DNA of 64,000 nucleotides from an uncultured cyanobacterium (lineage in GTDB: Bacteria; Cyanobacteriota; Cyanobacteriia; Cyanobacteriales; CAWUOF01): positions 1,806,831-1,870,830 of the forward strand of contig CAVUSO010000001.1 of assembly GCA_963744145.1 (NCBI GenBank). Direction: 5' to 3'. The notes under the pieces were generated by a model. It had not been told where the DNA came from, searched no databases, and saw nothing but the letters and a program-made list of their open reading frames with translations. Made by a program: the position numbers and the translations under genes. Positions 30,790 through 51,249 of the stretch are shown here, piece after piece; the stretch's first letter is position 1, and each line of letters opens with the position of its first letter.

Positions 30790-31006
30790 AATTCTCTGAT
30801 TGTTCCATAAGGTTCTGGGACTTCATCAATTAAGTGAATGTACTCACCATCAGCTCCCCATTGACTGATCACAGTAATCTCAAAAGATGCTTTTCTGATA
30901 TCTGGTTCCTTTTTGACTACTACAGCAACATGAGAATACTCGTCACCGATCGCTCCTAAAAATACTTAGATGAGTGTGCGCCAAGCATCTAGTCCAATAT
31001 GTAAAA

Positions 31007-31849: not shown

Positions 31850-31997
31850 AATTTTAATCTTATTGCCGCTGATGTTAACTATAGCTTGAATAAATTATGA
31901 ACGATAGTGGTGCAGAAACTTCTAGTTTGGTAGAATTATTAGATGCTCTTGGGTTTCCGATCGCGATCGCACCTACTAATGAAAAACCGATCTGATC

Positions 31998-32353
31998 TAA
32001 TCAAATCATGGAAGCACAACCGAGAGAAATTCAACGTTACCTAACCCGCGAAGGTAGAATTCCTTTTGCTGAATGGCTGTATTCTATTCGAGAATCTTAA
32101 AACTAGAGCTAAAATCGATCATAGAATTAAGCGAGTCAAATTAGGTAATCTGGGAGATTATCGATCTGTTGGAGAAGGAGTATTTGAACTGAAGATCAAT
32201 TATGGCCCCGGCTACAGAGTTGATTTTGGTCAAATCGGATTAACCATCATAATTCTTCTATGTGGTGGAGATAAAAGTACCCAAGAACAGGATATTTGTC
32301 AGGCTAAGGAATATTGGAGAGATTATGAAAACCGTGAAAATTCCGACCAGTGA
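31998..32353 (+). pseudogene. Addiction-module killer protein, copy 2, disrupted by a +1 frameshift near 32090-32100 (N-terminal MEAQPREIQRYLTREGRIPFAEWLYSIRES* then out-of-frame continuation ...KIDHRIKRVKLGNLGDYRSVGEGVFELKINYGPGYRVDF...)
   Basis: Aligned with copy 1: the N-terminal 33 codons are in frame 1 and the conserved remainder is in another frame. The downstream antidote is intact. Confidence 0.6.
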
Positions 32354-32642
32354 TAGTTGGCAAGAAGCATTAATTGAATCTTTAAAAAATCTTGAATATG
32401 CTGCCGCTTATCTAGAGACTGCACTAGAAGAAAAAGAATCCGAACCAGAATTCTTGCCAGCTATAATCAAAGATGTAATCGAAGCTCGCGAACAGATGAA
32501 TAGTCTCTCGGATGAAGCTAAACAGAAATGGGAGAAATTTGACCAAATGTTATCCAAAGATGGTGGTGCGGAAATTTATAGTCTGGTAGAATTATTAGAT
32601 GCTCTTGGGTTTCGGATCGCGATCGCATCTAAAAATACCTAG
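32325..32642 (+). CDS. Addiction-module antidote protein, copy 2 (start MKTVKIPTS)
   Basis: C-terminal half is identical in protein to copy 1 (SDEAKQKWEKFDQMLSKDGGAEIYSLVELLDALGFRIAIA). Confidence 0.65.
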   Translation: MKTVKIPTSDSWQEALIESLKNLEYAAAYLETALEEKESEPEFLPAIIKDVIEAREQMNSLSDEAKQKWEKFDQMLSKDGGAEIYSLVELLDALGFRIAIASKNT

Positions 32643-32751
32643 ATGAGTGTATGCTAAGAATGTGGGAATATGTGAAAGTAGTCATCCGCATCAGGGTCAA
32701 TGGCTATTACTCACAGATATTCTGATGTTTAGAGCAACTCAAGGTATAATC

Positions 32752-33804
32752 ATGGATTGGAAACCAGAAACCACTTTAATTTTTGCCGTAGGAATTTTGA
32801 CATGGGAAAACTCGGATGTTTGGCCATCTTTTCCCGAAGCAATTCCAGGACGTTTTGATCAAAAATTGGTTGATTTTTTTCGCGCTCAAGGAGTTCCTGA
32901 AGCGCAAATTGTTTATTTACAAGATGCCAAGGCGACTCTGGCAGAAATTCAATCAACTCTACCAGAATTTTTAGCTAATCATAGTGATGAAGATTACCTA
33001 CTAATTTTTTATTTTGCTGGTCATGGAGATTGGGATAAAGAAACAGGTGAACATTATTTTATAAATTACGATGCTGATGGCGATGATCGAGATAATTATT
33101 GGTCAGTCACTTCGATTTTTGGTGATATTGAAGATAATTTTAAAGGTTCTAAGGCTTTGTTATTAGCTGATTGTTGCTTTTCAGGTGGTTTAATTGATCA
33201 GGTAAAGGAAGGAGATGATTTAGAGATTTCCTATGCTTGTATCAGTTCAGCTTATACCCATAACTTTTCGACCGGGAATTGGACTTTTACAGAAGCTTTG
33301 TATCAAGGATTGCTGGGAGATCCTGTAGTTGATTTAGACGGCGATCGCGAGATAACTTTATATGATTTTGCTCGTTATGCAGAATTAGAAATGGCTTTCA
33401 TTGAATCTCAGAAATCGATGTTTGTGACTACTAAAGATTTTGATCCTCAGATGGTGTTAGCAATTGTATCTGATGATATTCCAGCGATCGAAGGAAAGCG
33501 GGTCGAAGTAGAATATGAGAATGAGTGGTACAAAGCTAAGACTTTAGAAAGAGAAGGAGATCAAGTTTTAATCAAATATGTTGAGGATGATGAGGAACCA
33601 GCATGGGTAACCAATGATCAGATTCGTCCCTATCAACCAGAGCTGTTTGCTATTGGAGAAAAAGTAGAAGTTGAATCAGAAGAAGAATGGTGTTCAGCAA
33701 CGGTTTTAAAAGCTTGGTATGGGTTGCATTTGATTAGTTATGACGATTATGATGAGTCCTATAATGAATGGGTAGGAAGCGATCGCATTCGTCCTCAACA
33801 GTAG
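32752..33804 (+). CDS. Orthocaspase (peptidase C14 caspase-like domain) with two C-terminal Tudor/Agenet-like domains
   Basis: Catalytic dyad context YLLIFYFAGHGDWD (His) and KALLLADCCFSGGLID (Cys). Two repeats GKRVEVEYENEWYKAKTL...VLIKYVEDDEEPAWVTNDQIRP and GEKVEVESEEEWCSATVL...HLISYDDYDESYNEWVGSDRIRP. Likely start MDWKPE at 32752; the track start 32647 lies in repeat-derived sequence. Confidence 0.65.
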   Translation: MDWKPETTLIFAVGILTWENSDVWPSFPEAIPGRFDQKLVDFFRAQGVPEAQIVYLQDAKATLAEIQSTLPEFLANHSDEDYLLIFYFAGHGDWDKETGEHYFINYDADGDDRDNYWSVTSIFGDIEDNFKGSKALLLADCCFSGGLIDQVKEGDDLEISYACISSAYTHNFSTGNWTFTEALYQGLLGDPVVDLDGDREITLYDFARYAELEMAFIESQKSMFVTTKDFDPQMVLAIVSDDIPAIEGKRVEVEYENEWYKAKTLEREGDQVLIKYVEDDEEPAWVTNDQIRPYQPELFAIGEKVEVESEEEWCSATVLKAWYGLHLISYDDYDESYNEWVGSDRIRPQQ

Positions 33805-39065: not shown

Positions 39066-42000
39066 TCAAAATAAAAGTTGACTTTCTTGGGAGCGAGAGG
39101 GCAATGACCAGCTCTTGACTTTACCCAAGGTGACCGGCATCGGCAGGGCCACATCAATAGTAAAGCGGAAGACCTTACGCCCCCGACGACTATTATCTGG
39201 GTCGTAAAACTCGAGTTTGATATCCCAACAGTCACTGTTGATGCGACAGAAGGGGCTTTTTTCAACTTGAATGGTGTCAAGTTGACGACCCTCGGCGATC
39301 GCTAGAGCAAAGGTTAAAGCCGCTTGGAAGATATTGGTAGCAGCGAAATTAAGAGCGCGATCGCGGGAAGTCTGCCCTACATTGCGTAAATCATTGTAGA
39401 CTCGGTTAAGGAAGATGATCAGAGCTTGTCGAACCAAGGGTTCTTGGGCTGCATCCACTCGATTGGAAATGGCTGTCATTGCCGCGTTTACCAGAGTATT
39501 TACTTTCCATCCATACATTCCCCGCACATCATGGACTTTCACCACAGGCAAAACCTGACCTGAGAAGAGTTCCACCGTGCGGTTGGTGCGTCGGGCTGGT
39601 ATGCTAATTCGCTCTACAAATTCATCACTGGTTTCTGGTTCGAGTTGCCCCACCAACATCAGCAAAAACATCTCGTAGATATCTGATGAAAACGCTCCTG
39701 TTGGTTCAAGGGCATAAATAGTATCGCCATCAAGGCTCAAAGTCCAGATGAGGGAACGGCTCTCATCTGGGTGGCGATCGAGATGCTCGACCATCTGACG
39801 GACATCGTAGGGGTCAGGCGGAACCATTATCCCGTTAACTTCAGTCGGAGCCATCATTTGCTTGAAGGTATCGCAGCGGGCTTCATCTCCAAAGTCGTAG
39901 TTAATAGTCCCTAAAACGTAAACGTTGCCAGAGAAAGCCGTGCTAGCTTCGATCGTGCCTAGCTCTGCGGTAGTCTCAGCTACTGTAAGGGATATTTCAG
40001 TTGGTGTGGCAGATGCGGTGAGTGGCATGGCTAAACTGGTGGTTATAGCAGTGCTGATCCTTGTCTGGGCAGCAATAGCGCTAGGAACAGCATATCCACC
40101 ACGCTCTGTACGGGTGACTTGGTCACCTGCAAAGGAAATGGTGACAGATGGTTGCCCAAACAGCACCTTCATCGTGCCCGGTATATTGACAAAACCGCGC
40201 ATACAGCGTTCGGATTCTTCTACAATCTTTGGATCGCAAGGAATCGCAGTATTGAGCAATGCCGTTCGGATCGCTTCAGCATCGACGGGTTTACCCTCTT
40301 GTAGCTGCAAACTCATCATTAGTGCAGAGATTCCGGTCACGATCGGAGCAGCTCCACTGGTGCCCGTTCTGAGCCTCGGTTTCTCAGTTGCTAATTGTGC
40401 GCCCCAAATGTCGTCACCAGGAGCCATAATCCCTTCTTCAGTATAATTGCCTCCCCAATTATTGTAGTGGGCTGGTGGGTTGCCTAGATCCATTGCTCCT
40501 ACAGGAAGAGTTCCTGGCAATACACCAGGTAAACACCAGTATTCACCCAAACCGTTACCCGCAGGCCCGACAATCAAAATATTGTTATCTAGGCACTTCT
40601 GTACAGCTTGGGTAAACAACTCTTCTCCTTGACAAGTTTGGGTGGGGCGACATATTCCACAATGAATGATATTTGCCCCCAAATCCAGGGCCAGTTCAAA
40701 AGCACGGGCTAGATTAAGGGGAGAGGCAAGTTCCTCCGCCATCTCTATGCTGTCAAGTGGTAGATTAATTAGGCGACAGTTAGGAGCAATACCAGCAGCA
40801 GGGGTATTTTCTTGACCCACAATGATACTGGTGACATGGCAAGTATGGTCATCAATTTTAAGACGTGCGATCAGAGGTTCCGGAAAACTAGCCCTGAGTT
40901 CTGCTTCTTTCTCCTGCTTGGTGCGATCGCTGTCTTCAATAGCTCGGAAGGTGGCGTACTGTTCTGAAGAAATTGGCCCTGGAGTCTCGTGCCAGTAAGG
41001 AAAGACTTTAGAAATTGCAGCTCCCTGGAAACAGGACAACGAGTGGTCGGGGTTGCCTTCGAGAACCACAATAGTGATGCGAGGGTCGCCGAGAGTTTGG
41101 TTGCGGAGTTCAGCCAGTCCCGGGATGCGATCGTCAAGGTCGTGGGGATGAAGTGCCATAGAAACATCTTGTGCTGTCGCCTCAACTGTGCTCGTTGAAA
41201 CGGTTGCAGATGAACTCAAGGATGCGAGCAAATCTGACTCTTCGTCAACCGAAACACCAGTCTGCGTTGCTTCAGTTATTAGTTGTGCTGATGTAGAAAC
41301 ATCTACAGATCCAGCCCCATTCACCACAACCTCCGTGGTATAGTCATTCTCCTCAAGTTCGTAGGATGCCACTTCACTAGCCGAAACTTCTACTGACCTA
41401 AGCTTGTTCCAGCCAGCTACTGTAGCTGAACTCGCATCACTTGTACCCACAGCATGGTTTGGTAACGACCCCAACATGAACTCACCCACAGCCGACTCTT
41501 TCACATAATCCAGACCTGCTAATTGCCCAAAACCGTCGCTATCTCCACCTCCCAACGCGCAGGGAGCAAGACCCATATTAGTAGACACTAAATAGAGATT
41601 TTGCTGTAGCACTCCAACATCTTTCAACACCAACGAATAGGCTACAGAGCGATACTTGCGGAACAGCCTGCCAAACCTTGCCGTAATCACAAGAAGAACT
41701 TGTGGTTGGGGTTTGTAATAAATATAAGGTTCTAGAGCAAGGACATCCTGGGATGCAGCAATCTGCTCCAATTGATGATTTATTGGATCGTAGTGATACA
41801 ATCCTGTGTCTAGTCCTTGACAAAGTCGCACCACTGGATAAATTTCTAGCTCATACATTGCTCCGCTACCAGGATAAGGCCGACTACCTAGCTCACCATA
41901 GTCAATATCCGCGTCAAAGCCGAGTATTTTCCGCCAATTTTCACCAAGCCACTCCTCCTCTCGAAGAATATTTTTGACACGGGCAGTGCGATAAAGAAGT

Positions 42001-42932
42001 TCACCGAGTTGTTCTATCGTGATAGGATGTGCATCGTCGTGTTCTCGAATCGATTTCCGTCTCTCAATCACTTCTGTGAGTGTAGCATCGTTACATTGCA
42101 ATGCCTCCAAGTTTGGACGCGGTAGAGACACAACTTTGTCGCTCATGGGTGGCTTTACCACCGGAAAATCAGACCACTGTTCGATGTTGATATCTCCTAC
42201 TGGATAGTCATGGCGGCCTAATCTGCTCCGGCTGTGGAACAACAGGTTGTGAAAGTCCCAAAGTTGGAGCGAGGGGGTTTCAGGGTCAGCCGTCAGAAAT
42301 CCTGATGCCCACAGCAATTTGAGAAACTGATAGGCTGTTTCTGGACCTAGGTAGGGTGGTGGTGTCAGTGTGCCCAGAGATTGGGGTTGGGCAAGTTGAG
42401 CCAGAATAGCACTTGCCCGCCAGTCGAGAAGTTTAACCCGAAACTTTGAGAGGGGGGACTCCAGCACCATGGTGCCGTCGTGGGGATGCTGATAGGCAAA
42501 GCGGGAGAGGGTGATATTTGTTTGTGTCCAGTAGGGTTCGGTCAGATTTAGCTCGGCAGATTCCACCATCGGGATCGCTAGTGCTAGGGGCAACACAGCA
42601 TAACTCAACCAACCCCGCTGATCCAATTGTTGTAGCATTAGGGCGAACTGTTCCCCTGCTATCCGACCATCAAGTTCGACTAACCCTTGCACAAGTGATT
42701 CATTGGTAGAGTTGCCTACCTTGAGAAGATCAAGAGCCATACTGATTCCAGGTGTTGTTGCTAGGGTGAGCAAATCATTGGGATTGGATTCTGCTGATGA
42801 ACGTAGAATATAGTGGTCTTCGGTACTTGTCACTTGGACAAAAGGATTGAGGAAAATATTGAAGGGATGGTTGCTCATAGCAAATGATAATGGGAAACAA
42901 TGATTAGGCAAGTGAGTCAATGGCAATAGCAA
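39066..42932 (-). CDS. patG: PatG-like cyanobactin maturation protein: N-terminal SagB-type FMN dehydrogenase (azoline oxidase), subtilisin-like (S8) protease/macrocyclase domain, and the PatA/G C-terminal DUF
   Basis: SRPYPGSGAMYELEIYPVV (SagB/nitroreductase motif). S8 blocks ITIVVLEGNPD, ILIVGPAGNG, GTSGAAPIVTGISALM. C-terminal ~230 aa is about 60% identical to the C-terminus of the PatA-like protein (…LNFAATNIFQAALTF…EKSPFCRINSDCWDIKLEFYDPDN…). Confidence 0.8.
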   Translation of the reverse strand: MLLPLTHLPNHCFPLSFAMSNHPFNIFLNPFVQVTSTEDHYILRSSAESNPNDLLTLATTPGISMALDLLKVGNSTNESLVQGLVELDGRIAGEQFALMLQQLDQRGWLSYAVLPLALAIPMVESAELNLTEPYWTQTNITLSRFAYQHPHDGTMVLESPLSKFRVKLLDWRASAILAQLAQPQSLGTLTPPPYLGPETAYQFLKLLWASGFLTADPETPSLQLWDFHNLLFHSRSRLGRHDYPVGDINIEQWSDFPVVKPPMSDKVVSLPRPNLEALQCNDATLTEVIERRKSIREHDDAHPITIEQLGELLYRTARVKNILREEEWLGENWRKILGFDADIDYGELGSRPYPGSGAMYELEIYPVVRLCQGLDTGLYHYDPINHQLEQIAASQDVLALEPYIYYKPQPQVLLVITARFGRLFRKYRSVAYSLVLKDVGVLQQNLYLVSTNMGLAPCALGGGDSDGFGQLAGLDYVKESAVGEFMLGSLPNHAVGTSDASSATVAGWNKLRSVEVSASEVASYELEENDYTTEVVVNGAGSVDVSTSAQLITEATQTGVSVDEESDLLASLSSSATVSTSTVEATAQDVSMALHPHDLDDRIPGLAELRNQTLGDPRITIVVLEGNPDHSLSCFQGAAISKVFPYWHETPGPISSEQYATFRAIEDSDRTKQEKEAELRASFPEPLIARLKIDDHTCHVTSIIVGQENTPAAGIAPNCRLINLPLDSIEMAEELASPLNLARAFELALDLGANIIHCGICRPTQTCQGEELFTQAVQKCLDNNILIVGPAGNGLGEYWCLPGVLPGTLPVGAMDLGNPPAHYNNWGGNYTEEGIMAPGDDIWGAQLATEKPRLRTGTSGAAPIVTGISALMMSLQLQEGKPVDAEAIRTALLNTAIPCDPKIVEESERCMRGFVNIPGTMKVLFGQPSVTISFAGDQVTRTERGGYAVPSAIAAQTRISTAITTSLAMPLTASATPTEISLTVAETTAELGTIEASTAFSGNVYVLGTINYDFGDEARCDTFKQMMAPTEVNGIMVPPDPYDVRQMVEHLDRHPDESRSLIWTLSLDGDTIYALEPTGAFSSDIYEMFLLMLVGQLEPETSDEFVERISIPARRTNRTVELFSGQVLPVVKVHDVRGMYGWKVNTLVNAAMTAISNRVDAAQEPLVRQALIIFLNRVYNDLRNVGQTSRDRALNFAATNIFQAALTFALAIAEGRQLDTIQVEKSPFCRINSDCWDIKLEFYDPDNSRRGRKVFRFTIDVALPMPVTLGKVKSWSLPSRSQESQLLF

Positions 42933-43439
42933 GTGGTGAAATCATCAGTAAGGGATAGAAATTAAATAACTAGCTTGCTTGTAGTAACACATCAGAGCGA
43001 AGACAGCGCTTACTACGAACCAAACCGTCAAGTTATTTATTTTTCATTCCTAATGGCATCTTATATGTTGTTAAAAATTCGATCCCGTATAACTTTAAAA
43101 GGTTAGGTTTTTTTGGACGGTTCAACAATTGTTTTATCCGCTAACTATAACAAAAGATTTATTATGTTCGATCGCCCTCAACATCGCAATTAGGCTCAAT
43201 CCCACACAAACCTTCTATTCCAAGAACAGCTTCTTCAAATAAAGGAATCGGAAAACTAGGTTCTACATCAAAAGCATCTCGGTGAGCCCGCATAAACCGA
43301 AGACGGTGTTCTCGTAGATAATTATGTAAAAATCCAGAATTTATCGTCATAATCGTATTTCCTCATCCAACACTTTTTAAGTTATCTGCTGCAAATTATA
43401 TGCACCCATTCAGAATAGGTTTTGAGTTTGGATGCACTT

Positions 43440-45233
43440 TCATTTTATCTTGTTCACAAAATTATTTATTTCGTAGTACATTTTTACTCTCTGAATTGAA
43501 TCAATATAAAACTCAGATTCAGGAATACCTAAATACAGCCTCTTAAAGACTCGATTCCGGTAATAAGCATGGACTTTATTCACCATCTCATTGCCCAAAT
43601 ATTCAACAGCACTATTGGGAGATTTGAAATTAGTGAAATAAAGGACATCACTATCGTTCTCATTGCTAATACCGATTTGAACAACTCTACTCTCATAGAA
43701 AAGAGGAAGTGCTCTAGCAGGTAATCTCGAAGTTAAATATGCTTGTACATCCAGGCGATCGAGATCGGCAGGATAAAAAGTAGGATAGACTTCTACCGCC
43801 GCTTTATTGTTAAAGAAAAAGTCAAACCCTACTAATAAAGTCCCATTGATAATTAATTTCTCCCAGTCTCGCTTTTCTCCGCAAAGTGCGATGGCAATTG
43901 CTATCTTTTCTGGATAATCCCTGATGCTAAGAAATAACTTTATTCGTGAACGTTTTAGTTCTGGACGAACATCGACACCGACAGACACCATATCTACTTT
44001 ATGAGGGTCTATACCTGTAGCTAAAAACTGCTGAAGTAAACTGCGATCAAGCTGAATTTCTGGACTTCCTTCTATCAAACGAGAGAAAGAGAGGAAATCT
44101 TCAATATCAAGCAATTTCACTACTGGATCGGGAACACCAACTTCAGAGAGATAAGTAAAACGAGCTGGATAAAAACAATCTTTTTCAATATTGCAGCAAC
44201 AGGCAATACAACCTCCTTGATCTTTTCTCTGCTTACCGATAAATTCTGCAAATAAATTTAATGGATAAGAATTTTCAATATTAAAAACTTGTTTGTGTTC
44301 TTCAAAATAACGCAAATTTTCTTCATGGCGATTCAATCCGAAACTGGACTTCACACCAGAAAAATGCTTTTGGGGTTCAACTTTTATTCTGGCAGGTTTG
44401 ACCGCTTTAATATCAGCAAAAAATAAGGGTAAATTGGGGTGAAGGAAATTTGCAGAAGCTAGACGTAGAGCTAGTGATGGCATCTTAACTGTTTGGTTTT
44501 CATCATATTCAATAGATTGGAAACCAGCCTCATGAACAAGCTCAACTAAGTTCTTAAGAGGAATAACATGGCTGTTTTGGAGTTCTTGCTGGTTGATTTC
44601 ATCCATTGCTTTTTGCTCTAGTGGAGAAAGGGGTGGCTCTTTAACAAAGAGACCCGTAATATATAGAGTTCCCCCCGGATTTAGCACGCGTCTGGCTTCA
44701 GCAAGGACTTGGGATACCCGATTAGAATACTTGATGCTGTCGTTGAAAAACACTACATCAAATACTTCATTGGGAAAAGGTGGGAAATGAAAATCACCTA
44801 CTTGGACCCGCACCCGATCAACCAAGTTAGCTTGGGCAATCCGAATTTGGGCTTCTGCCGCTTCCACCTCAGAAATTGTTAGACCCTCAATCCGGGTTCC
44901 TGGAAACAACTGAGCAATATGAATCGCCGGAATTCCTGCTCCACAACCAGCATCAAATATATAGTTTCCGGGCTTTATCCCCATGCGATCTGCTAGACTA
45001 AGGTTGTGTGATCTAGCTACTGCATCAGGAACCATCCGACTAAAGTTGATGGAGTGCTTATTATAAAAAGTGCGAACTTCTTCGACTTCGGGCGTAGGGT
45101 TAGGTTGAATAGGAGCACTTGGACTGATGTAGTTATTTTGCATGATGTTCGATAGGGATAACTGGCGGAAAGAAAAGTCTGGATGACTTGATGGTGAGCT
45201 TAAGTGCATCTTCAACAGTAAAGACAAGACCAA
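43440..45233 (-). CDS. Class I SAM-dependent methyltransferase fused to a C-terminal domain occupying the PatF (cyanobactin prenyltransferase family) position; putative bifunctional MT-PT
   Basis: MTase motif I IFDAGCGAGIPAIHIA, post-I acidic residue, motif II/III region. ~350-aa C-terminal domain of PatF-like size immediately downstream of the precursor gene. The PT call is positional/inferential. Confidence 0.5.
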   Translation of the reverse strand: MVLSLLLKMHLSSPSSHPDFSFRQLSLSNIMQNNYISPSAPIQPNPTPEVEEVRTFYNKHSINFSRMVPDAVARSHNLSLADRMGIKPGNYIFDAGCGAGIPAIHIAQLFPGTRIEGLTISEVEAAEAQIRIAQANLVDRVRVQVGDFHFPPFPNEVFDVVFFNDSIKYSNRVSQVLAEARRVLNPGGTLYITGLFVKEPPLSPLEQKAMDEINQQELQNSHVIPLKNLVELVHEAGFQSIEYDENQTVKMPSLALRLASANFLHPNLPLFFADIKAVKPARIKVEPQKHFSGVKSSFGLNRHEENLRYFEEHKQVFNIENSYPLNLFAEFIGKQRKDQGGCIACCCNIEKDCFYPARFTYLSEVGVPDPVVKLLDIEDFLSFSRLIEGSPEIQLDRSLLQQFLATGIDPHKVDMVSVGVDVRPELKRSRIKLFLSIRDYPEKIAIAIALCGEKRDWEKLIINGTLLVGFDFFFNNKAAVEVYPTFYPADLDRLDVQAYLTSRLPARALPLFYESRVVQIGISNENDSDVLYFTNFKSPNSAVEYLGNEMVNKVHAYYRNRVFKRLYLGIPESEFYIDSIQRVKMYYEINNFVNKIK

Positions 45234-45403
45234 AGAAGGAACATAGGACTTTAAAAAAGTTTTTTATCTAAGCCTCCTTGGCCTTGTCTGTAGTCTCAAG
45301 CCTATCAACGTTTAATCCCGATATTTAGGGCAGTAAACTGCAATTTTACCGGATTTGGAAGGCTTAAGATGCAATTTGCTGGCCATTCGCAAATTGGAAG
45401 AAT

Positions 45404-45646
45404 TTAGGCATCACCATCGAAGGAACAGATGCATATGATAGCTGCATCTACACCATCGAAGGAACAAATGGTTGGAACGAAAGCTGCATCTACACCATCG
45501 AAGGAACAGATGCATATCATAGCTGCATCTACACCAGCACCACCGAGAGCTTCCTCAGATAGTTCAGCCAAGTGGCTGGGGAGTTGACCATTGGTAATGC
45601 GGAGTACGGGTTTGGCTTGTTGGGGCAGGATATTTTTCTTATTCAT
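45404..45646 (-). CDS. patE: Cyanobactin precursor peptide (PatE-like), 80 aa: conserved leader + three core cassettes
   Basis: Leader MNKKNILPQQAKPVLRITNGQLPSHLAELSEEALGGA is PatE-like. The rest is GVDAA-MICIC-SFDG-VDAA-FVPTIC-SFDG-VDAA-IICIC-SFDGDA. The DNA shows three cassette repeats at 45420-45540. The track ORF (to 45745) has a spurious N-terminal extension. Confidence 0.8.
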   Translation of the reverse strand: MNKKNILPQQAKPVLRITNGQLPSHLAELSEEALGGAGVDAAMICICSFDGVDAAFVPTICSFDGVDAAIICICSFDGDA

Positions 45647-45780
45647 GGAACTAATCCTTATTTTGTTGCTTGGTTTGTTGACCCGTTTAGGTGGGTTAAT
45701 CCTCTCCTTCATTGAGAAGAAGGCTGATGAAGCAACATCTGGCACGTAGAGAAGCCCGTTGCCTGCAAACTTTAAAAGAC

Positions 45781-48129
45781 TTAGAATGGTATATTCATAG
45801 GATTCATTTCTGCCTCAGCCAGGGGTAAAATTTGCCACCCTAACTGCACCGGAACATCATAAAGCCGCCCGGGAGCAAACCGCGACCATAAACCTCTCAT
45901 TCCGGGTATAATCACTTTGACGACATTCAAGCCAATGTCCGGTCGCGTTTGGTCTAATACCAAAGTTTCTAGCCCTACTGTTTGAGCTATCCCTACACAA
46001 GTCATCACATCTGTATAGATATCATCACTCCAACGTTTCGGGTAATCATTGGCAGTCTTCATCGGCTGTGTTTGATCGGGAAGTAGACAAGGATGACTAG
46101 ATCGAGTCACTTCTAAAAACCAGTCTTTCGACTCATCTTTGAGTTGCTCGTCAGGAATTTTGTCAAGTTCCAGTCCAACCTGACTCACCTCAGTCAAACT
46201 GCGAAGAATAGCAATCTTCGGGTCTAGATGCGCCCCAAAACCGACGATCACCCGCTCTGAACTTCCTACTGTGCGATACGATATACCCGCAAACGCCGGA
46301 ATTCCCAGGTCAGCAGTTAAATCCAGCACCCAAAGTTCTCGGTTCCGCTCCTGGTAGAACTGCTGCAACTGGAGAAAATAAGGCTCATCAAAGCTGCTGA
46401 GATCCACCCCTGGACGTCTAAGGCGGTTGTACCACCACAGGGCTACGCTATCACGCTCCACCAGTTCCATAAACCCTTGCAATATTGCCTCTTCAAGGGT
46501 ATTGCCCGCCGCGTTACCGTTGGAATCTGCCTTACAGAAACGATTGGTTTCTGGGATGGGATAGTGGTAGTAGCAAAAGGCAGTGGGAAGGTATTTGTGT
46601 GTCTGTGCAGTCAATGACCATACTGGTGTCCAGTCAATGGCTTGACTGGCATCAAACCGATGGGGAATCCAGCGATAGGCTGCTTCTGTCCCTTGAGCGT
46701 TTAGGGCTTCTCGATTAGCATACTGCCCATCGCTAAAGTACAAACACTGCTCCGGATGAATTGCCAAGTCTCCTAGTTCTGCTAGAGTTGCCCGTTTACG
46801 GGGTTCATCTCCCTGAAAGATCCCTGAATAGCGTTCCACTGCCTCACATAACCCACTTGCCCGCGATTGGCTATCGGTTTTGCCCTTGCCCGAACTCTTG
46901 TGGCGGAGGGTATTACGTAGTCCCCGCAGGGATATAGCACTACCAAAACTATGCCCTGCCCGGTAAGTATGAACCAATTGGTTGGCTGGATCGGTGATTC
47001 GCACTAGTTCTGTCACTACCCCTGTAATCGGGCTGATCAGGTGTTGGTATTTCTGAACAGTCTGTTCCGGGGTAACAGCGCGGTGACCACCATCAGCCGT
47101 GAAGTGCTTGGGGCGCGATTCTAGCTGTAGCGGTTCAAATCCCCGTCGTTGCAGGATACCTGAGTCGCCACAGGTCGGACATTGAGGTCGCTTAATCAAG
47201 ATATGACTTTTCAAGTCCAGAATCGTCTGGTTAAAGGTGATAATCTTGCCGTCTAGGGTAGGGAAGAGCGCAGTTCCTGGTGCAGTTTTATTGGCATAGT
47301 GCTTGACAATCCACTTGGCAATTTCAGTTGCTGCAAACTGTAACCCCGTTTGTAAGGTTGAAGGTAGTGTTGCCCGTGCTGTGGGGAGGCAACCTACCAC
47401 CCGCACTTTTTGGCCATTGCGCTCTTGTTGGGCTTGTTTTTGCCGCAAGACCGACGACTCAACTTCTCGATTGCCCCGCAATCGCTGGGCAAGACAGTCC
47501 CAACACCCCGTCTTTCCAGGAACAAACACCGGACCTAACCAGAGAACACTGCCCACTGGCTTGATTAGTAGCCAAGCTTGTTGGTGTTGCAGAGCCTGTT
47601 GGTTAATTGCCCCTAGTTCGGGCTGTAAATAATCATCAGTCAAAACTATGTTAATTACTGCGGAGGAACCCGCATCTGTGGGTTTTTGTACCGCAATACC
47701 CATCTCCTGCAACGCATTGGTGAGAGCAGTAGCAGTTACTTCATTGATGTTCTCCCCCACTGTTGTCAGCGTGACCGGCTGATGTAGTCCCTGTGCTGCA
47801 ACAGCGGGTGAAATCCCTAACTCGCTCCAAAATGCCGCCACTTCTGGGGATAAAATCGGGGCAGCCTCGGTGAGGTATCCCTTCTCTGCCAGGCGATTGA
47901 GCACATAGTCAATATATTCTGGTGGAACTTCCCCATCCAGCTTTTCGACAATCTGCATCTGGGTATATTGCCCATCCAACAGAGGCAATATTTGGCAGTA
48001 GAGTTGCCCTGTGAGGACATAGTTAGCCTGTTCGCCAAGTAGATAAACTTGCTTTGGCTCAATGATCTCGACATGAAAGTGGGGCTTAATTTGCAGCAGT
48101 GTGGTAGATTGCATGGAGCGAACAGTCAT
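45781..48129 (-). CDS. patD: PatD-like cyanobactin heterocyclase (E1-like docking domain + YcaO cyclodehydratase), 782 aa
   Basis: Size and domain order as PatD/TruD. Cys-x-x-Cys pairs (CWDC, CPTC) in the N-terminal zinc-tetrathiolate region. YcaO-type C-terminal domain. Located directly upstream of the precursor. Confidence 0.8.
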   Translation of the reverse strand: MTVRSMQSTTLLQIKPHFHVEIIEPKQVYLLGEQANYVLTGQLYCQILPLLDGQYTQMQIVEKLDGEVPPEYIDYVLNRLAEKGYLTEAAPILSPEVAAFWSELGISPAVAAQGLHQPVTLTTVGENINEVTATALTNALQEMGIAVQKPTDAGSSAVINIVLTDDYLQPELGAINQQALQHQQAWLLIKPVGSVLWLGPVFVPGKTGCWDCLAQRLRGNREVESSVLRQKQAQQERNGQKVRVVGCLPTARATLPSTLQTGLQFAATEIAKWIVKHYANKTAPGTALFPTLDGKIITFNQTILDLKSHILIKRPQCPTCGDSGILQRRGFEPLQLESRPKHFTADGGHRAVTPEQTVQKYQHLISPITGVVTELVRITDPANQLVHTYRAGHSFGSAISLRGLRNTLRHKSSGKGKTDSQSRASGLCEAVERYSGIFQGDEPRKRATLAELGDLAIHPEQCLYFSDGQYANREALNAQGTEAAYRWIPHRFDASQAIDWTPVWSLTAQTHKYLPTAFCYYHYPIPETNRFCKADSNGNAAGNTLEEAILQGFMELVERDSVALWWYNRLRRPGVDLSSFDEPYFLQLQQFYQERNRELWVLDLTADLGIPAFAGISYRTVGSSERVIVGFGAHLDPKIAILRSLTEVSQVGLELDKIPDEQLKDESKDWFLEVTRSSHPCLLPDQTQPMKTANDYPKRWSDDIYTDVMTCVGIAQTVGLETLVLDQTRPDIGLNVVKVIIPGMRGLWSRFAPGRLYDVPVQLGWQILPLAEAEMNPMNIPF

Positions 48130-48163
48130 TGATTAAGTGGACAAAAACCAAACATCCCATTAA

Positions 48164-48763
48164 TTAAGCCCAGATGCGACCCCGTCGGAAGTCCTTGGGC
48201 TGCTGTTCAGGGGTTTTGGCAGATCTTTTGGCATAATCCCACCAATAGGAATAATCTTGCAGCCCGGTCTGGGAAGTGGGCACATAAGACTTTTTCGGTT
48301 CAGGGGTTGAGGAGACTTCCGAGGTTGTTGGTGTTGGTGTTGGTGTTTTCTTAGCCATCGTTTTTTTAGTTTCCTTGGGTGTTTCGGGTGTTTGGGAGGT
48401 TGGCGGTAGCTGGAGATTAACCACTCCCTCTAGCTTGAGGTAGTCGATCCGGTGTACTCCATCTCCCGACCCTTTAACAGTGGTCAGGGTTAGGGTATGT
48501 TGCCCAGCACTGAGGGCTGGTAAGGGAATCTGGGTTTGGGTTGGCTTGCCTGACCCGACGCCGACCAGTTCGGTTACTAGTTCACCATCAACCCAGAGGG
48601 TGTCAACTTCAGAGCCAAAAAAGTTATAAAAGAGTGTAAGTTCGCCTGTACTGTAACTTTGGGTTAGGGTGAATTGAATATTTAGTTTGTCGGTGGAAAA
48701 AAGCTGTTTTCCTTTGTGCTGTGGTTTCTTCTTGCGACCTGGAACCAAGAGCAACGATGGCAT
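48164..48763 (-). CDS. Hypothetical protein (199 aa) in the PatC position of the cluster, Thr/Pro-rich linker
   Basis: Positional only. TPETPKETKKTMAKKTPTPTPTTSEVSSTPEPKK low-complexity segment. Confidence 0.35.
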   Translation of the reverse strand: MPSLLLVPGRKKKPQHKGKQLFSTDKLNIQFTLTQSYSTGELTLFYNFFGSEVDTLWVDGELVTELVGVGSGKPTQTQIPLPALSAGQHTLTLTTVKGSGDGVHRIDYLKLEGVVNLQLPPTSQTPETPKETKKTMAKKTPTPTPTTSEVSSTPEPKKSYVPTSQTGLQDYSYWWDYAKRSAKTPEQQPKDFRRGRIWA

Positions 48764-48939
48764 ATGTGGATGGTTAATGGGTTCTGGATCTGACCCAACA
48801 ATGTAGGTAAATTCCTTTTGCCAGCCACCTACCTGCGAAAACTCTTGCCCTCCTTTACCAGGATGACCAATTTGCCATAGAGTTTCAGTTTGCTGAGGTA
48901 TGGTGATGAGCGACTTATCAGTGGCTCTTTAGTGGCTTA

Positions 48940-49191
48940 TTAATAAAATCCTCCCATACCCGCAAAGCCGCCCCAGCCCTGGCTGGATGTACTCTGGCTA
49001 GTACTAGAGTGCATCACCTGGTTGAAACTGCGGTTGGCAAAGGCTGGAGGATCGTTATAGTTAGCGGCATGGAGTAGATCCATCCGAATACCTACCAAAT
49101 CATCAGGACTACCATTTTCCACATCCACACACAACGCTGGTTGGATGAAATGGGGACGTTTAACGGGAGGAGACAATATAGGAAGTCGCAT
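48940..49191 (-). CDS. Hypothetical small protein (83 aa) in the PatB position
   Basis: Positional only. Confidence 0.3.
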   Translation of the reverse strand: MRLPILSPPVKRPHFIQPALCVDVENGSPDDLVGIRMDLLHAANYNDPPAFANRSFNQVMHSSTSQSTSSQGWGGFAGMGGFY

Positions 49192-49296
49192 GGTTGAGGA
49201 TTCTCCGTATGAATATTATGGATAGGATCAACAAACTTAGATGTCTGGACGAGAGTGCATTTGGTTTTTGCACTCTCATGCAAATTGTATTTCCTT

Positions 49297-51249
49297 TTAA
49301 TACGGTGAAGACCAGCTGCGAACTTCGCCCAAGGTAACTGGAATCAAATCGCTCACATCAATGGTGAAGCGGAAAATCTTCTTGGCGCGGCGGTTGTTTT
49401 CCGGGTCGAAGAACTTCAGTTTCACATCCCAACAGTCGCTATCCACACGACAGAAAGGACTCTTCTCCACGGTGATGCTGTCAAGTTCCATGCCCACTGC
49501 TACCGCTTGACTGAAGGTTTGTGCGGCTTGGAAAGCGTTGGTAACTGCGAAGTTGAGAGCGCGATCTTGAGATGTGGTTCCCAAGTTGCGGAGGTCGTAG
49601 TAGATGCGGTTGAGGAAACCATCCAAAGTCCTGCGAATCGTTTCTTCGTCAGCATCCCCAGTTTCCGCTTGAACTGCTGCCAATGCCGCACTCACCAGGT
49701 TGTTGACTTTCCATCCATAGATACCGCGGGTACTTTGGGGTTCAATGACTGGAACAATTTGACCGGAGTAGAGCTTGACCGTGCGTTTGGTTAATATACC
49801 TGGTATGCTGACGCGCTCAACGTATTCGGTATTAGATTCAGGTTGGATTTGACCTGATAGCAGTTCGTGAAGGGCTCGGTAGGATTCAGCACCGAAGGGA
49901 CCTGTGGGGTCGATCGCGTATACTGGAGTTAATTCAATGTTGAGTGTCCAAATTAGCGATCGCGCCTCCGAAATATTATCGTTCAGGTAGTCCACCATCT
50001 GGCGAGCATCGTAGGGGTTAGCCGGGACCATCACCCCTCCCCCCAAGTCAAACGGTGGCATCAGTTGCTTAAATGAGTCCCTCCGGGCTTCAGTTCCGAA
50101 GTCATAGCCGAGGGTGCCCAGGGAATAGACCAGCTGACCGAGATCGGCAAGTTCGCTGGGGGCTTGGCTGGCGGTGACAGAGTTAGCAGTGAAGTTGGGC
50201 ATCGTTGGTGGTTGGGTGATAGGGTTAGGAAAGGATTGAATCAATTCTTGCAAGTTGGGGGTGTTGCTGGGGACAGCTCCAACCGCTCCGGGCGTGGCAG
50301 CGATCGCTTCACTGGTGTTGGTTAAGCCACCAGTACAACCGCAACCTCCCGCTTCTACTGATGAGGCATCTACTGATGCAAATTCCTCAGCCATTTTTCC
50401 TCCTTTTAATAACGTTATGGCACCAGGGATGTTTAGTTTGCCTGCCAGACACCGTTTAGTGTCTGGCAAGTCTGGGTCGTCGCAGGGTAAGGCACTCTGC
50501 AACAAAATTTGCCGAATTTTGTGGGAGTCTGGGGTTTCTCCCTCCTCCTGCTGCATACTCAGCAAGACCGCTGCTACACCTGAAACGATAGGAGTAGCGA
50601 AGCTCGTACCACTCAGGCGCTGGGTGCCGCCCCCAGGTTTAGCCCCCAGGATATCCTCCCCTGGGGCAAGAATACCTTGTTCTTGGTAGGTTTCGCCCCA
50701 GTTGCTAAAATCCAGGGGTTTACCATTAGCATCCATAGCTCCCACCGCTAGTACATCGGGCAAGGCAGCGGGCACATGTAAGCAATCACAACCATTGTTG
50801 CCAGCGGCAGCGACCAGCAAAACATTGTTCTTTTGGCACAAACGAATGGCATTCTGAAGCCAGCCATCGGATTCGCCAAAATCAGTCAGTTGACCCCCAC
50901 TGATGTTGATCACATGGGCTCCAGCATTGATCGCTTGCTCTATTCCTCGCGCCAAATCTAGCTGAGAGGTCTTGCGCCGATCGTCGGCAAAAACCGGTAC
51001 AATTATTCCCTTACATTGGGGCGCAATCCCCTGGACTGGACTCCCCGGTTGCCCAAATATAATGCTGGCAACGTGGGTTCCGTGGGTGGACATACTGCCA
51101 TCGCTCTTTGCTTTTTCTTGCACCAATGTGGGTAGATACTTAATGTCTGCGCCTTGGAAGCAAGCATGAGTCTGATCGACAGGACCATCCAAAACTGCTA
51201 TACAAATACTGCTATCTCCCTGAGAGATGCTACGCAATTTATCTAGCAT
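49297..51249 (-). CDS. patA: PatA-like cyanobactin N-terminal protease: subtilisin (S8) domain + C-terminal PatA/G DUF
   Basis: ICIAVLDGPVDQTHACF (Asp), STHGTHVASIIFG (His), AAAGNNG (oxyanion Asn), LSGTSFATPIVSG (Ser). C-terminal domain homologous to the PatG-like C-terminus. Confidence 0.85.
   Translation of the reverse strand: MLDKLRSISQGDSSICIAVLDGPVDQTHACFQGADIKYLPTLVQEKAKSDGSMSTHGTHVASIIFGQPGSPVQGIAPQCKGIIVPVFADDRRKTSQLDLARGIEQAINAGAHVINISGGQLTDFGESDGWLQNAIRLCQKNNVLLVAAAGNNGCDCLHVPAALPDVLAVGAMDANGKPLDFSNWGETYQEQGILAPGEDILGAKPGGGTQRLSGTSFATPIVSGVAAVLLSMQQEEGETPDSHKIRQILLQSALPCDDPDLPDTKRCLAGKLNIPGAITLLKGGKMAEEFASVDASSVEAGGCGCTGGLTNTSEAIAATPGAVGAVPSNTPNLQELIQSFPNPITQPPTMPNFTANSVTASQAPSELADLGQLVYSLGTLGYDFGTEARRDSFKQLMPPFDLGGGVMVPANPYDARQMVDYLNDNISEARSLIWTLNIELTPVYAIDPTGPFGAESYRALHELLSGQIQPESNTEYVERVSIPGILTKRTVKLYSGQIVPVIEPQSTRGIYGWKVNNLVSAALAAVQAETGDADEETIRRTLDGFLNRIYYDLRNLGTTSQDRALNFAVTNAFQAAQTFSQAVAVGMELDSITVEKSPFCRVDSDCWDVKLKFFDPENNRRAKKIFRFTIDVSDLIPVTLGEVRSWSSPY

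What the first reader, a model, noticed from the sequence alone, without database searches (positions are those of the whole stretch)
45404..45646. Precursor peptide with three short Cys-rich core cassettes and non-canonical recognition sequences
The translation is MNKKNILPQQAKPVLRITNGQLPSHLAELSEEALGGA | GVDAA MICIC SFDG | VDAA FVPTIC SFDG | VDAA IICIC SFDGDA.

- **Leader.** Strongly PatE-like.
- **N-terminal recognition element.** GVDAA (canonical G(L/V)(E/D)(A/P)S has Ser in the last position).
- **C-terminal recognition element.** SFDG (canonical AYDG/SYDG).
- **Cores.** MICIC, FVPTIC and IICIC are only 5-6 residues, all end in Cys, and two carry a C-x-C pair. They are potential bis-thiazol(in)e products.

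Such short cores are characteristic of linear aeruginosamide/viridisamide-type cyanobactins rather than 6-8-residue macrocycles. The three-fold DNA cassette repeat (45420-45540) indicates recent cassette duplication and diversification.
Basis: partly seen in the sequence, partly recalled or inferred. Interest (0 to 1): 0.85.

Follow-up and report, generated by a model that had tools for sequence, protein, structure and literature searches.

The report
Precursor gene for linear cyanobactin peptides
This small gene encodes the precursor of a cyanobactin natural product, and its neighbouring enzymes mark it as a new but ordinary member of the known aeruginosamide/viridisamide family of short, linear, thiazole-containing peptides.

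Summary
A minus-strand ORF (45646..45404) encodes the quoted 80-residue peptide: a PatE-like leader and three cassettes (cores MICIC, FVPTIC, IICIC) built on a 39-nt repeat. It lies in an intact cyanobactin cluster (A-B-C-D-E-F-G, 51249..39066).

Two independent features support a linear product:
- **F gene.** It is a methyltransferase-prenyltransferase fusion, 78% identical to the aeruginosamide enzyme and 76% to the viridisamide one.
- **G protease domain.** It belongs to a distinct class found in all 12 fusion-bearing clusters examined and in none of 7 macrocycle-type proteases. There are 21 fixed differences, including Glu for catalytic Asp548 and Gly for Met784.

The "non-canonical" flanks are ordinary. 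SFDG occurs 40 times in 30 of 120 homologues, and Ala-ending N-terminal sites recur. Relatives with the fusion already carry IICMC, FITIC and IVPCIC cores. Six residues is the commonest macrocycle length, so core length alone is not diagnostic for FVPTIC.

Verdict: a new member of a known kind; products are predicted, not shown. The protease-class signature may merit follow-up. Interest 0.3.

The parts
45404..45646 (-). E gene: 80-aa cyanobactin precursor. Leader is aa 1-37 and includes LAELSEEAL. Three cassettes follow, each (G)VDAA | core | SFDG, then a C-terminal DA.
   Evidence: Translation. Pfam DUF5837 2.8e-25 and TIGR03678 2.8e-20. Exact match to P0001 on a 7,634,710-bp NCBI contig. AGGA Shine-Dalgarno-like motif 8 nt upstream of the ATG.
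45506..45520 (-). Core 1: MICIC (ATG ATA TGC ATC TGT)
   Evidence: Read directly. In register with the cores of relatives.
45464..45481 (-). Core 2: FVPTIC (TTC GTT CCA ACC ATT TGT)
45425..45439 (-). Core 3: IICIC (ATC ATA TGC ATC TGT); one base different from core 1
49297..51249 (-). A gene: N-terminal (PatA-type) subtilisin-like protease plus DUF domains, 650 aa. Triad motifs are intact (LDGPVD, HGTHVA, GTSFATP).
   Evidence: TIGR03895 4.9e-284. Pfam Peptidase_S8, PatG_D and PatG_C. Motifs.
48940..49191 (-). B gene (PatB/AcyB/McaB family), 83 aa
   Evidence: TIGR04220 4.1e-36.
48164..48901 (-). C gene (PatC-like). Homologous to VirC over 252 aa at 78% identity. The canonical ATG ATG start is replaced by ACC ATA; the next ATG is at 48763.
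   Evidence: tblastn. Translations and DNA. TIGR04447 1.3e-15 on the C-terminus.
45781..48129 (-). D gene: YcaO heterocyclase with an N-terminal winged-helix leader-binding domain, 782 aa (777 aa if started at 48114)
   Evidence: Pfam YcaO 4.5e-99 and DUF4423_like 7.3e-37. Full-length matches to LynD 4V1T (1471 bits) and TruD 4BS9 (1375 bits).
43440..45143 (-). F1 gene: bimodular SAM methyltransferase plus PatF-type prenyltransferase fusion, 567 aa (AgeMTPT/VirF1 type)
   Evidence: Pfam Methyltransf_11 5.1e-17 (aa 94-192) and DUF5838 6.6e-104 (aa 304-588 of the longer ORF). TIGR04445 4.6e-89. 78% identity to the M. aeruginosa PCC 9432 protein and 76% to the O. nigro-viridis protein, both full length.
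43162..43350 (-). F2 stub: the first 61 codons of a second PatF-like gene; the rest is deleted
   Evidence: tblastn with VirF2: residues 1-61 at 70% identity and nothing further. F2 ends at the same residue in L014 and L007.
39066..42878 (-). G gene: thiazoline oxidase plus C-terminal protease plus DUF, 1270 aa. The triad positions read Glu607 (= PatG Asp548, codon 41060..41058), His678 and Ser841, followed by Gly842 (= PatG Met784).
   Evidence: Pfam ThcOx 2.6e-31, Nitroreductase 2.9e-09, Peptidase_S8, PatG_D and PatG_C. PDB matches 4H6X, 4AKS, 4UVQ and 5LQ4. Class analysis. Coordinates.

Best explanation
The ORF is the substrate (E) gene of a complete age/vir-type cyanobactin pathway.

**Predicted route**
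1. The D heterocyclase binds the leader (LAELSEEAL region) and converts the Cys residues of each core to thiazolines. That is two in MICIC and IICIC and one in FVPTIC.
2. The oxidase domain of G aromatises them to thiazoles.
3. The A protease cuts after (G)VDAA and frees each core's N-terminus.
4. The protease domain of G cuts between the core-terminal heterocycle and SFDG. It releases the core by hydrolysis rather than by head-to-tail cyclisation.
5. The F1 fusion enzyme then caps the free ends: prenyl on the N-terminal amine and a methyl ester on the C-terminal thiazole carboxylate.

**Predicted products ([M+H]+, mono-prenyl)**
- prenyl-Met-Ile-Thz-Ile-Thz-OMe, 624.2707
- prenyl-Phe-Val-Pro-Thr-Ile-Thz-OMe, 741.4004
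- prenyl-Ile-Ile-Thz-Ile-Thz-OMe, 606.3142

**Shown here:** gene content, gene integrity, homology, cassette register and the protease class.

**Inferred from characterised homologues:** every chemical step, the linear outcome and whether the cluster is expressed.
For: - **Precursor identity.**
- **Complete cluster.** A, D, E, F1 and G have no internal stops. The cluster spans about 12.2 kb, against about 12.4 and 13 kb reported for age and vir (PMC4663559).
- **F1.** It is a full-length MT-PT fusion, 78% and 76% identical to the PCC 9432 and PCC 7112 proteins. The review names this bimodular protein as the feature that predicted linear N-prenylated, C-methylated products.
- **Short cores travel with the fusion.** All 12 MT-PT clusters I could inspect have PatE-like precursors. 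Ten of them have cores of 3-6 residues: FIC, VYC, WAT, IVPC, FITIC, IICMC, YVPPC, FVPCC (twice) and IVPCIC. One pairs QCFVIC with an 11-residue core. Cores of 5 residues or fewer were seen only with MT-PT: 9 of 12 MT-PT clusters against 0 of 6 PatF-only clusters.
- **G protease domain.** It is 81-86% identical to those of the MT-PT clusters and 64-67% to those of PatF-only clusters. In contrast, A, D and the DUF domains are equally similar to both classes. It carries all 21 class-fixed substitutions, including D548E and M784G. The association is 12/12 against 0/7, Fisher p=2e-5.
- **The Glu form works.** The viridisamide producer PCC 7112 (L009) has the same Glu-containing G, so that form is compatible with making a linear product (product per PMC4663559).
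- **Cleavage register.** P0009 carries the same core, TIPTVC, behind AEAA three times and behind VEAS once. Ala and Ser are therefore interchangeable at the last position of the A-protease site.
Against: - No chemistry or expression data exist for this organism, and I could not even name the organism.
- The G protease keeps the capping-helix insert of the PatG macrocyclase (single full-length alignment to 4AKS).
- PatG is reported to cyclise 5-22-residue unnatural substrates (PMC4979651), so cyclisation of FVPTIC, or even of the pentamers, is not excluded.
- FVPTIC is longer than the 3-5 residues reported for characterised linear cyanobactins.
- Two accessory genes are eroded: the F2 stub and the lost patC start codon.
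- I could not read the primary biochemical paper on AgeMTPT/AgeG (PMC5764894 is not held). The enzyme's substrate rules are therefore taken from reviews and from my own recollection.
Confidence: 0.72

Rival explanations
1. The products are head-to-tail macrocycles, as in patellamide, microcyclamide and tenuecyclamide-type cyanobactins. This could apply to all three cores or only to the six-residue FVPTIC.
For: - Six residues is the modal core length of the family's macrocycles (125 of 181 distinct cores).
- SFDG is mostly found on six-residue cores of the macrocycle kind.
- The closest precursor homologues (P0002-P0004, 69-73% identity) sit in PatF-only clusters.
- G retains the macrocyclase capping-helix insert.
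- PatG is reported to make 5-22-membered rings from unnatural substrates.
Against: - A macrocycle has no free termini for the intact, highly conserved MT-PT enzyme to cap.
- The G protease domain lacks the macrocycle-class residues at all 21 class-fixed positions and is only 64% identical to PatGmac, against 80-86% for macrocycle-type clusters.
- Other MT-PT clusters also carry six-residue cores (IVPCIC, QCFVIC).
Confidence: 0.15
2. The cluster is silent or decaying and makes no mature product in this organism.
For: - F2 is reduced to 61 codons.
- patC has lost its canonical start codon.
- The DUF5829 gene and the C39-ABC transporter seen next to the vir cluster are absent.
- The catalytic Asp of G is Glu.
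- No promoter-like or terminator-like signal above background lies around E.
Against: - A, D, E, F1 and G are full length with no stops, and their catalytic motifs are intact.
- The three cassettes keep identical flanks while their cores differ, which is the pattern expected under selection for processing.
- The Glu is shared by all 12 MT-PT clusters, including the viridisamide producer.
- F2 ends at the same residue in L014 and in Limnoraphis robusta L007, and DUF5829 and the ABC transporter are also missing from other MT-PT loci.
- To my recollection, PatB and PatC are dispensable in heterologous patellamide production. I did not check this here.
Confidence: 0.1
3. The cleavage register differs: the A protease cuts after GVDA, so the cores are AMICIC, AFVPTIC and AIICIC (6-7 residues).
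For: The canonical site ends in Ser, and here that position is Ala. Read alone, the sequence is ambiguous.
Against: - In P0009 the identical core TIPTVC follows AEAA in three cassettes and VEAS in the fourth.
- In the alignment, the second Ala occupies the Ser column of PatE, TruE1, McaE, TenE and VirE.
- AEAA precedes FITIC in an MT-PT cluster (L002).
Confidence: 0.03

Closest known systems
Aeruginosamide (age) pathway, Microcystis aeruginosa PCC 9432
   Same: - The F1 methyltransferase-prenyltransferase fusion is 78% identical over its full length.
- The A-B-C-D-E-F-G organisation includes an oxidase-bearing G.
- The precursor has a PatE-like leader and several short Cys-terminal cassettes.
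- The known products are linear, N-prenylated, C-terminal thiazole methyl esters (PMC4663559).
   Different: - The cores differ. The characterised aeruginosamides are tetra- and pentapeptides and, as far as I know, each has a single C-terminal thiazole.
- Here two cores have a second, internal Cys and one core has six residues.
- The C-terminal element is SFDG.
- F2 is only a stub.
- I did not retrieve the PCC 9432 locus itself. L014 (core IVPC) is the nearest age-like locus I inspected.
Viridisamide (vir) pathway, Oscillatoria nigro-viridis PCC 7112 (L009)
   Same: - Same gene order.
- F1 is 76% identical.
- The G protease domain is 86% identical and carries the same Glu548/Gly784 class signature.
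- VirC is 78% identical.
   Different: - VirE carries four FIC tripeptide cores joined by a fused SVDAS spacer instead of SFDG + VDAA.
- The vir locus has an intact F2, a DUF5829 gene and a C39-ABC transporter, all absent from the window.
Uncharacterised MT-PT clusters in sequenced genomes: Microcoleus sp. B9-D4 (IICMC), Crocosphaera sp. XPORK-15E (AEAA|FITIC), Microcoleus sp. F4-D5 (IVPCIC)
   Same: - Same cluster type.
- Five- or six-residue cores with C-x-C (IICMC, IVPCIC) or an Ala-ending N-terminal site (AEAA).
- Three cassettes.
- G is of the linear class.
   Different: - Those clusters have three identical cassettes, whereas this one encodes three different cores.
- Their C-terminal element is SYDG/SYDD rather than SFDG.
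- No product has been reported for any of them in the literature I could search.
Macrocyclic thiazole/oxazoline cyanobactin pathways (patellamide pat, microcyclamide mca, tenuecyclamide ten)
   Same: - The leader is 78% identical to PatE.
- The A, D and DUF domains are as similar to these clusters as to the linear ones, about 78-88%.
- xFDG recognition elements occur there, for example AFDG in McaE.
- The heterocyclase, oxidase and protease logic is the same.
   Different: - Those clusters have a plain PatF instead of the MT-PT fusion.
- Their G protease domain belongs to the Asp548/Met784 class, 80-86% identical to PatGmac against 64% here.
- Their cores are 6-8 residues and the products are cyclic.
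Muscoride (mus) pathway, another linear prenylated cyanobactin
   Same: - A linear, terminally protected cyanobactin (PMC10373908).
- The D heterocyclase is related (MusD 7U58, 993 bits).
   Different: - Mus uses separate MusF1/F2 prenyltransferases.
- Its methyltransferase is fused to DUF domains instead (MusH, 46% identity over 42% of F1).
- D here is much closer to LynD and TruD.

Membership tests
Cyanobactin precursor peptides (PatE-like; Pfam DUF5837 / TIGR03678) | Conserved ~35-residue leader containing the heterocyclase recognition motif LAELSEEAL | tested here: met
   TIGR03678 2.8e-20 over residues 1-34. 29/37 identical to the PatE leader. The motif is invariant in alignment A3.
Cyanobactin precursor peptides (PatE-like; Pfam DUF5837 / TIGR03678) | One or more core cassettes, each flanked by an N-terminal protease site (G-x-[ED]-[AP]-S type) and a C-terminal site ([AS]-[YF]-D-G type), with a Cys/Pro at the last core position | tested here: met
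   Three cassettes, VDAA|core|SFDG, each core ending in Cys. They are in register with PatE, TruE1, McaE, TenE and VirE. The variants xxAA (11 further occurrences) and SFDG (40 occurrences) are present in other family members.
Cyanobactin precursor peptides (PatE-like; Pfam DUF5837 / TIGR03678) | Encoded next to PatA-type and PatG-type proteases (and a YcaO heterocyclase when the cores contain Cys) | tested here: met
   A, D and G flank E on the same strand.
Linear cyanobactin pathways of the aeruginosamide/viridisamide (age/vir) type | Bimodular SAM-methyltransferase / PatF-type prenyltransferase protein encoded directly after E | tested here: met
   567-aa F1 with both domains. 78% and 76% identical, full length, to the PCC 9432 and PCC 7112 proteins. 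The review identifies this protein as the family's hallmark.
Linear cyanobactin pathways of the aeruginosamide/viridisamide (age/vir) type | Short cores (3-5 residues reported) ending in Cys, giving a C-terminal thiazole | tested here: inconclusive
   MICIC and IICIC fit. FVPTIC has six residues, outside the reported 3-5 range, although uncharacterised MT-PT clusters also carry six-residue cores.
Linear cyanobactin pathways of the aeruginosamide/viridisamide (age/vir) type | G protein with a thiazoline oxidase domain and a C-terminal protease domain of the class that co-occurs with MT-PT (my own operational criterion, derived here) | tested here: met
   ThcOx and Nitroreductase domains. The protease domain is 81-86% identical to 10 MT-PT clusters and 64-67% to 6 PatF-only clusters. 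All 21 class-fixed residues are of the linear type.
Linear cyanobactin pathways of the aeruginosamide/viridisamide (age/vir) type | Second PatF-like gene (F2) between F1 and G, as in the published age and vir clusters | tested here: not met
   Only codons 1-61 remain. F2 ends at the same residue in two other MT-PT loci, L014 and L007, so F2 is not universal in the family.
Linear cyanobactin pathways of the aeruginosamide/viridisamide (age/vir) type | Products are linear, N-prenylated and C-terminally methyl-esterified | not testable with these tools
   This needs LC-HRMS/MS or heterologous expression.
Macrocyclic heterocycle-containing cyanobactin pathways (pat/mca/ten type) | PatG-type macrocyclase domain with the Asp548-His618-Ser783 triad (PMC4979651) | tested here: not met
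   Position 548 is Glu (codon GAA, 41060..41058); His and Ser are kept; Met784 is Gly. Identity to PatGmac is 64%, against 80-86% for clusters of this type.
Macrocyclic heterocycle-containing cyanobactin pathways (pat/mca/ten type) | Stand-alone PatF-type gene and no terminal-capping enzyme | tested here: not met
   F1 is the MT-PT fusion, and the stand-alone PatF-like gene is a 61-codon stub.

The most novel reading that the evidence does not exclude
The linear outcome is set by a separate subclass of G proteases, not by core length. In this subclass the catalytic Asp is Glu (a Ser-His-Glu triad), the residue after the nucleophile is Gly instead of Met, and the capping-helix Lys region is remodelled.

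On this reading, the domain swapped into otherwise interchangeable cyanobactin clusters together with the MT-PT gene. It hydrolyses the acyl-enzyme even for a core of macrocycle length such as FVPTIC. This cluster would then produce the first linear cyanobactins with two thiazoles, and a linear hexapeptide.

Probability: 0.3. Interest if true: 0.55.

Novelty: new member of a known kind. Interest (0 to 1): 0.3.

Why it matters
**For natural-product discovery.** The cluster predicts three new small, doubly capped thiazole peptides. Two of them carry an alternating X-Thz-X-Thz motif that has not been described among the characterised linear cyanobactins. Aeruginosamides are reported to be cytotoxic (PMC7551963, PMC8878463). 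This is incremental, because at least 11 other clusters of the same type exist in public data and some have near-identical cores.

**For enzymology.** The comparison made here is more broadly useful. The only enzyme domain that tracks the linear/cyclic divide is the G protease domain, and the divide includes a catalytic-triad substitution. That gives a short, testable list of residues for converting a peptide macrocyclase into a hydrolase and back, which is relevant to those who use PatG-type enzymes for peptide cyclisation.

Tried and rejected
- **Naming the organism: failed.**
  - The exact proteins are on an unannotated 7,634,710-bp NCBI/ENA contig with no names or accessions.
  - The genome-contig scan did not return the source genome.
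  - Look-ups gave only a 6.9-kb Logan contig from run ERR11571142 and nothing for the D protein.
  - The window has no tRNA gene.
- **Primary papers: not accessible.** Sardar et al. 2017 on AgeMTPT (DOI and PMC5764894) and Koehnke et al. 2012 on PatGmac (PMC3462482) are not held. A search for 'AgeG' plus 'cyanobactin' found nothing. I therefore could not check whether the Glu548 signature is already described, or quote the PatG substrate contacts.
- **Third homologue search: weak.** The search with the G protease domain hit its candidate cap and returned mostly fragments. It did not return even the full-length self hit. I used it only to show Asp at 548 and Met/Cys/Leu at 784 in other G-type proteases.
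- **Metagenome scan: small yield.** It added one full locus and one fragment.
- **Promoter and terminator scan around E: nothing above background**.
- **Literature search for the core strings: no relevant hit**.
- **Rejected: unusual recognition sequences.** The idea that the flanks imply unusual proteases is contradicted by their frequency in homologues.
- **Rejected: shifted cleavage register.** A register with Ala inside the core is contradicted by P0009.
- **Left unresolved.** I did not try to decide whether Thr in FVPTIC is heterocyclised. D is closest to LynD and TruD, which I recall as Cys-selective, but no PatD sequence was available for comparison.
Full report
**1. The observation**

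The plus-strand translation of 45404-45646 is meaningless.

MNKKNILPQQAKPVLRITNGQLPSHLAELSEEALGGA | GVDAA MICIC SFDG | VDAA FVPTIC SFDG | VDAA IICIC SFDG DA

- It matches Pfam DUF5837 over its whole length (E=2.8e-25). It also matches the NCBIfam microcyclamide/patellamide RiPP model, 72 bits against a cut-off of 39.6.
- Tandem Repeats Finder reports a 39-nt unit repeated 3.1 times at 45412-45536.
- At the DNA level the parts encoding the flanking elements are identical in all three cassettes. Cassettes 1 and 3 differ in their cores by one base (Met/Ile). Cassette 2 differs only within the core and has one extra codon. This is the usual cyanobactin pattern of hypervariable cores between conserved flanks, and it fits recent duplication and diversification.
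- It is the only such gene in the window.
- The same protein sequence is on record once in the protein collection, on an unannotated 7,634,710-bp NCBI/ENA contig, and the same gene also sits on a short Logan contig, L001.

The one addition is that the gene is on the minus strand.

**2. Surroundings**

The ORF lies inside a complete, co-directional cyanobactin cluster:

| Gene | Coordinates (minus strand) | Product |
|---|---|---|
| A | 51249..49297 | N-terminal protease |
| B | 49191..48940 | PatB family |
| C | 48901..48164 | PatC-like |
| D | 48129..45781 | YcaO heterocyclase |
| E | 45646..45404 | precursor peptide |
| F1 | 45143..43440 | methyltransferase-prenyltransferase fusion |
| F2 | 43350..43162 | 61-codon stub |
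| G | 42878..39066 | thiazoline oxidase + protease + DUF |

- A, D, E, F1 and G have no internal stops.
- The cluster has 47.2% G+C against 40.0% for the rest of the window, so it looks like an acquired island.
- The flanking genes are unrelated: a sensor kinase on one side and a large UvrD_C-containing protein on the other.

**3. What decides linear or cyclic: the F gene**

That is not enough.

- Among 120 homologous precursors, six residues is by far the commonest core length (125 of 181 distinct entries), and those are the classic cyclic hexapeptides.
- A review reports that PatG can cyclise unnatural substrates of 5-22 residues (PMC4979651).

The stronger evidence is F1. It is a full-length fusion of a SAM methyltransferase and a PatF-type prenyltransferase.

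- It is 78% identical to the Microcystis aeruginosa PCC 9432 protein and 76% to the Oscillatoria nigro-viridis PCC 7112 protein.
- The review PMC4663559 describes this bimodular protein as the feature that led to the discovery of aeruginosamides B/C and viridisamide A. These are linear peptides of 3-5 residues with a prenylated N-terminus and a methylated C-terminal thiazole.
- PMC10373908 names AgeMTPT as modifying the amino terminus of linear cyanobactins.

**4. Comparative set**

I collected 12 clusters with the fusion (window; L002-L009, L014, L015, L018) and 6 with only a plain PatF (L010-L013, L016, L017).

- **Cores in the fusion-bearing clusters other than the window:** FIC, VYC, WAT, IVPC, FITIC, IICMC, YVPPC, FVPCC (twice), IVPCIC, and QCFVIC together with an 11-residue core.
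- **Short cores.** Cores of five residues or fewer occurred only with the fusion. Six-residue cores occurred in both classes.
- **Consequence.** MICIC and IICIC are typical of the linear class, and FVPTIC is compatible with it. Neither internal Cys (IICMC, IVPCIC) nor an Ala-ending N-terminal site (AEAA|FITIC in Crocosphaera) is new.

**5. The recognition elements**

- SFDG occurs 40 times in 30 of the 120 homologues.
- AEAA occurs 10 times and VEAA once. Only the exact string VDAA is private to this peptide.
- In P0009 the same core, TIPTVC, follows AEAA three times and VEAS once. This shows that Ala and Ser are equivalent at the last position of the A-protease site, and it fixes the cleavage register.
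- In a formal alignment the cassettes are in register with PatE, TruE1, McaE, TenE and VirE. The core-terminal Cys and the Asp of the C-terminal element are invariant.

The flanks depart from the textbook consensus, but they are ordinary within the family.

**6. The G protease**

- **Alignment to PatG.** The protease domain aligns in one piece to the PatG macrocyclase structures, capping-helix insert included (4AKS, 4H6X).
- **Triad substitution.** At PatG's catalytic Asp548 (triad Asp548/His618/Ser783 per PMC4979651) the window has Glu: IVVLEGNPD against IVIIDGDPD, codon GAA at 41060..41058. Met784, next to the nucleophile, is Gly.
- **Not an isolated defect.** All 12 fusion-bearing clusters share Glu548/Gly784. 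PatG and the 6 PatF-only clusters have Asp/Met (Fisher p=2e-5, though the clusters are not phylogenetically independent).
- **Other G-type proteases.** Those from a wider search have Asp at 548 wherever the region could be read, and Met, Cys or Leu at 784, never Gly.
- **Fixed differences.** In total 21 positions are fixed within each class and differ between the classes. They include F747Y and a remodelled capping-helix segment, GLKGK to DR(T/P)KQ.
- **Identity to PatGmac.** It is 80-86% for the PatF-only clusters and 63-68% for the fusion clusters.
- **Domain specificity.** The split is confined to this domain:

| Window domain | Identity to fusion class | Identity to PatF-only class |
|---|---|---|
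| A protease | 79% | 78% |
| A-DUF | 89% | 88% |
| D | 80% | 80% |
| G-DUF | 78% | 78% |
| G oxidase | 78% | 70% |
| G protease | 84% | 66% (ranges do not overlap) |

So the protease module travels with the capping enzyme. That is what one would expect if it had diverged in function from transamidation to hydrolysis.

PCC 7112, which makes viridisamide A, has the Glu form (L009). The Glu form is therefore compatible with product release.

**7. Most likely mechanism**

Steps are inferred from characterised homologues unless marked.

1. D binds the leader and cyclodehydrates Cys to thiazoline. D is closest to LynD and TruD.
2. The oxidase domain of G makes thiazoles. The ThcOx and nitroreductase domains are present.
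3. A cuts after VDAA.
4. The G protease cuts before SFDG and releases a free acid.
5. F1 prenylates the N-terminal amine and methylates the C-terminal carboxylate.

Predicted [M+H]+ values are 624.2707, 741.4004 and 606.3142 for the mono-prenyl methyl esters. Whether the Thr in FVPTIC is modified is open.

**8. Signs of erosion and their weight**

- F2 is cut to 61 codons. F2 ends at the same residue in L014 and in Limnoraphis robusta L007, so this is a shared F2-less architecture.
- patC has ACC ATA where relatives have ATG ATG.
- The DUF5829 gene and the C39-ABC transporter next to the vir cluster are absent here, but they are also absent from several other fusion-bearing loci.
- None of these touches the core enzymes.

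**9. Verdict**

The finding is real and was correctly interpreted. It is a new member of a known kind, not a new variant.

- Its flanks are ordinary.
- Near-identical cores already sit in sequenced relatives.
- The products are predictions.

Interest is modest (0.3). The part that might repay more work is the class-specific Ser-His-Glu protease domain as a candidate determinant of linear against cyclic release.

Noticed in passing
window 39066-42878 (-); Glu codon 41060..41058, Gly842 within 40364..40344; also L002-L009, L014, L015, L018: In all 12 clusters that carry the MT-PT fusion, the G protease domain has Glu at PatG's catalytic Asp548 and Gly at Met784, plus 19 further class-fixed changes. 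PatG and the 6 PatF-only clusters have Asp/Met. Only this domain separates the two cluster classes; A, D and the DUF domains do not. I could not establish whether this has been reported before.
   Followed up: yes
window 43162-43350 (-); L014 8797-8973; L007 12874-13056: The second PatF-like gene (F2) is truncated after codon 61 in the window. F2 ends at the same residue in two other MT-PT loci (L014, core IVPC; Limnoraphis robusta BA-68). This suggests a shared or recurrent deletion and that F2 is dispensable.
   Followed up: partly
window 48895-48910 (-): The patC-like gene is 78% identical to VirC over 252 residues, but the conserved ATG ATG start is ACC ATA here. The next ATG (48763) would remove 46 N-terminal residues.
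   Followed up: partly
window 39066-51249 against the rest of the window: The cyanobactin cluster has 47.2% G+C and the rest of the window 40.0%. This compositional island is consistent with lateral acquisition.
   Followed up: no
L006 (JBLNEP010000059.1, labelled 'MAG: Actinomycetota bacterium'): A complete MT-PT cyanobactin cluster, 69% identical in F1, sits on a contig binned as Actinomycetota. Its precursor cores are WAT/WTT, with no Cys at all. This is either a binning error or a transfer out of cyanobacteria, and the Thr-terminal cores imply a C-terminal oxazoline rather than a thiazole.
   Followed up: no
L004 9519-9746 (Microcoleus sp. B6-A1): An MT-PT cluster whose precursor carries QCFVIC and an 11-residue, four-Cys core, QCMPCVCVPVC. 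That is far longer than any characterised linear cyanobactin and would be a good test of whether the linear-class G protease ever cyclises.
   Followed up: no
L017 6514-9860: In this macrocycle-type cluster the D heterocyclase gene is split by an IS element (DDE_Tnp_1 transposase at 8074-8898), and the PatF-like genes are fragmented. It is an example of a decaying cyanobactin cluster.
   Followed up: no
window 25125-33804: This region holds two similar Uma2-family endonuclease genes (28488-29351 and 31007-31849, both minus). It also holds a 1010-aa LRR-Roc-COR protein (25125-28157, minus) and a caspase-Agenet protein (32647-33804, plus). Further upstream are large PAS/GAF histidine kinases and a Ser/Thr kinase-WD40 protein. 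This gene content is typical of a large filamentous cyanobacterial genome.
   Followed up: no
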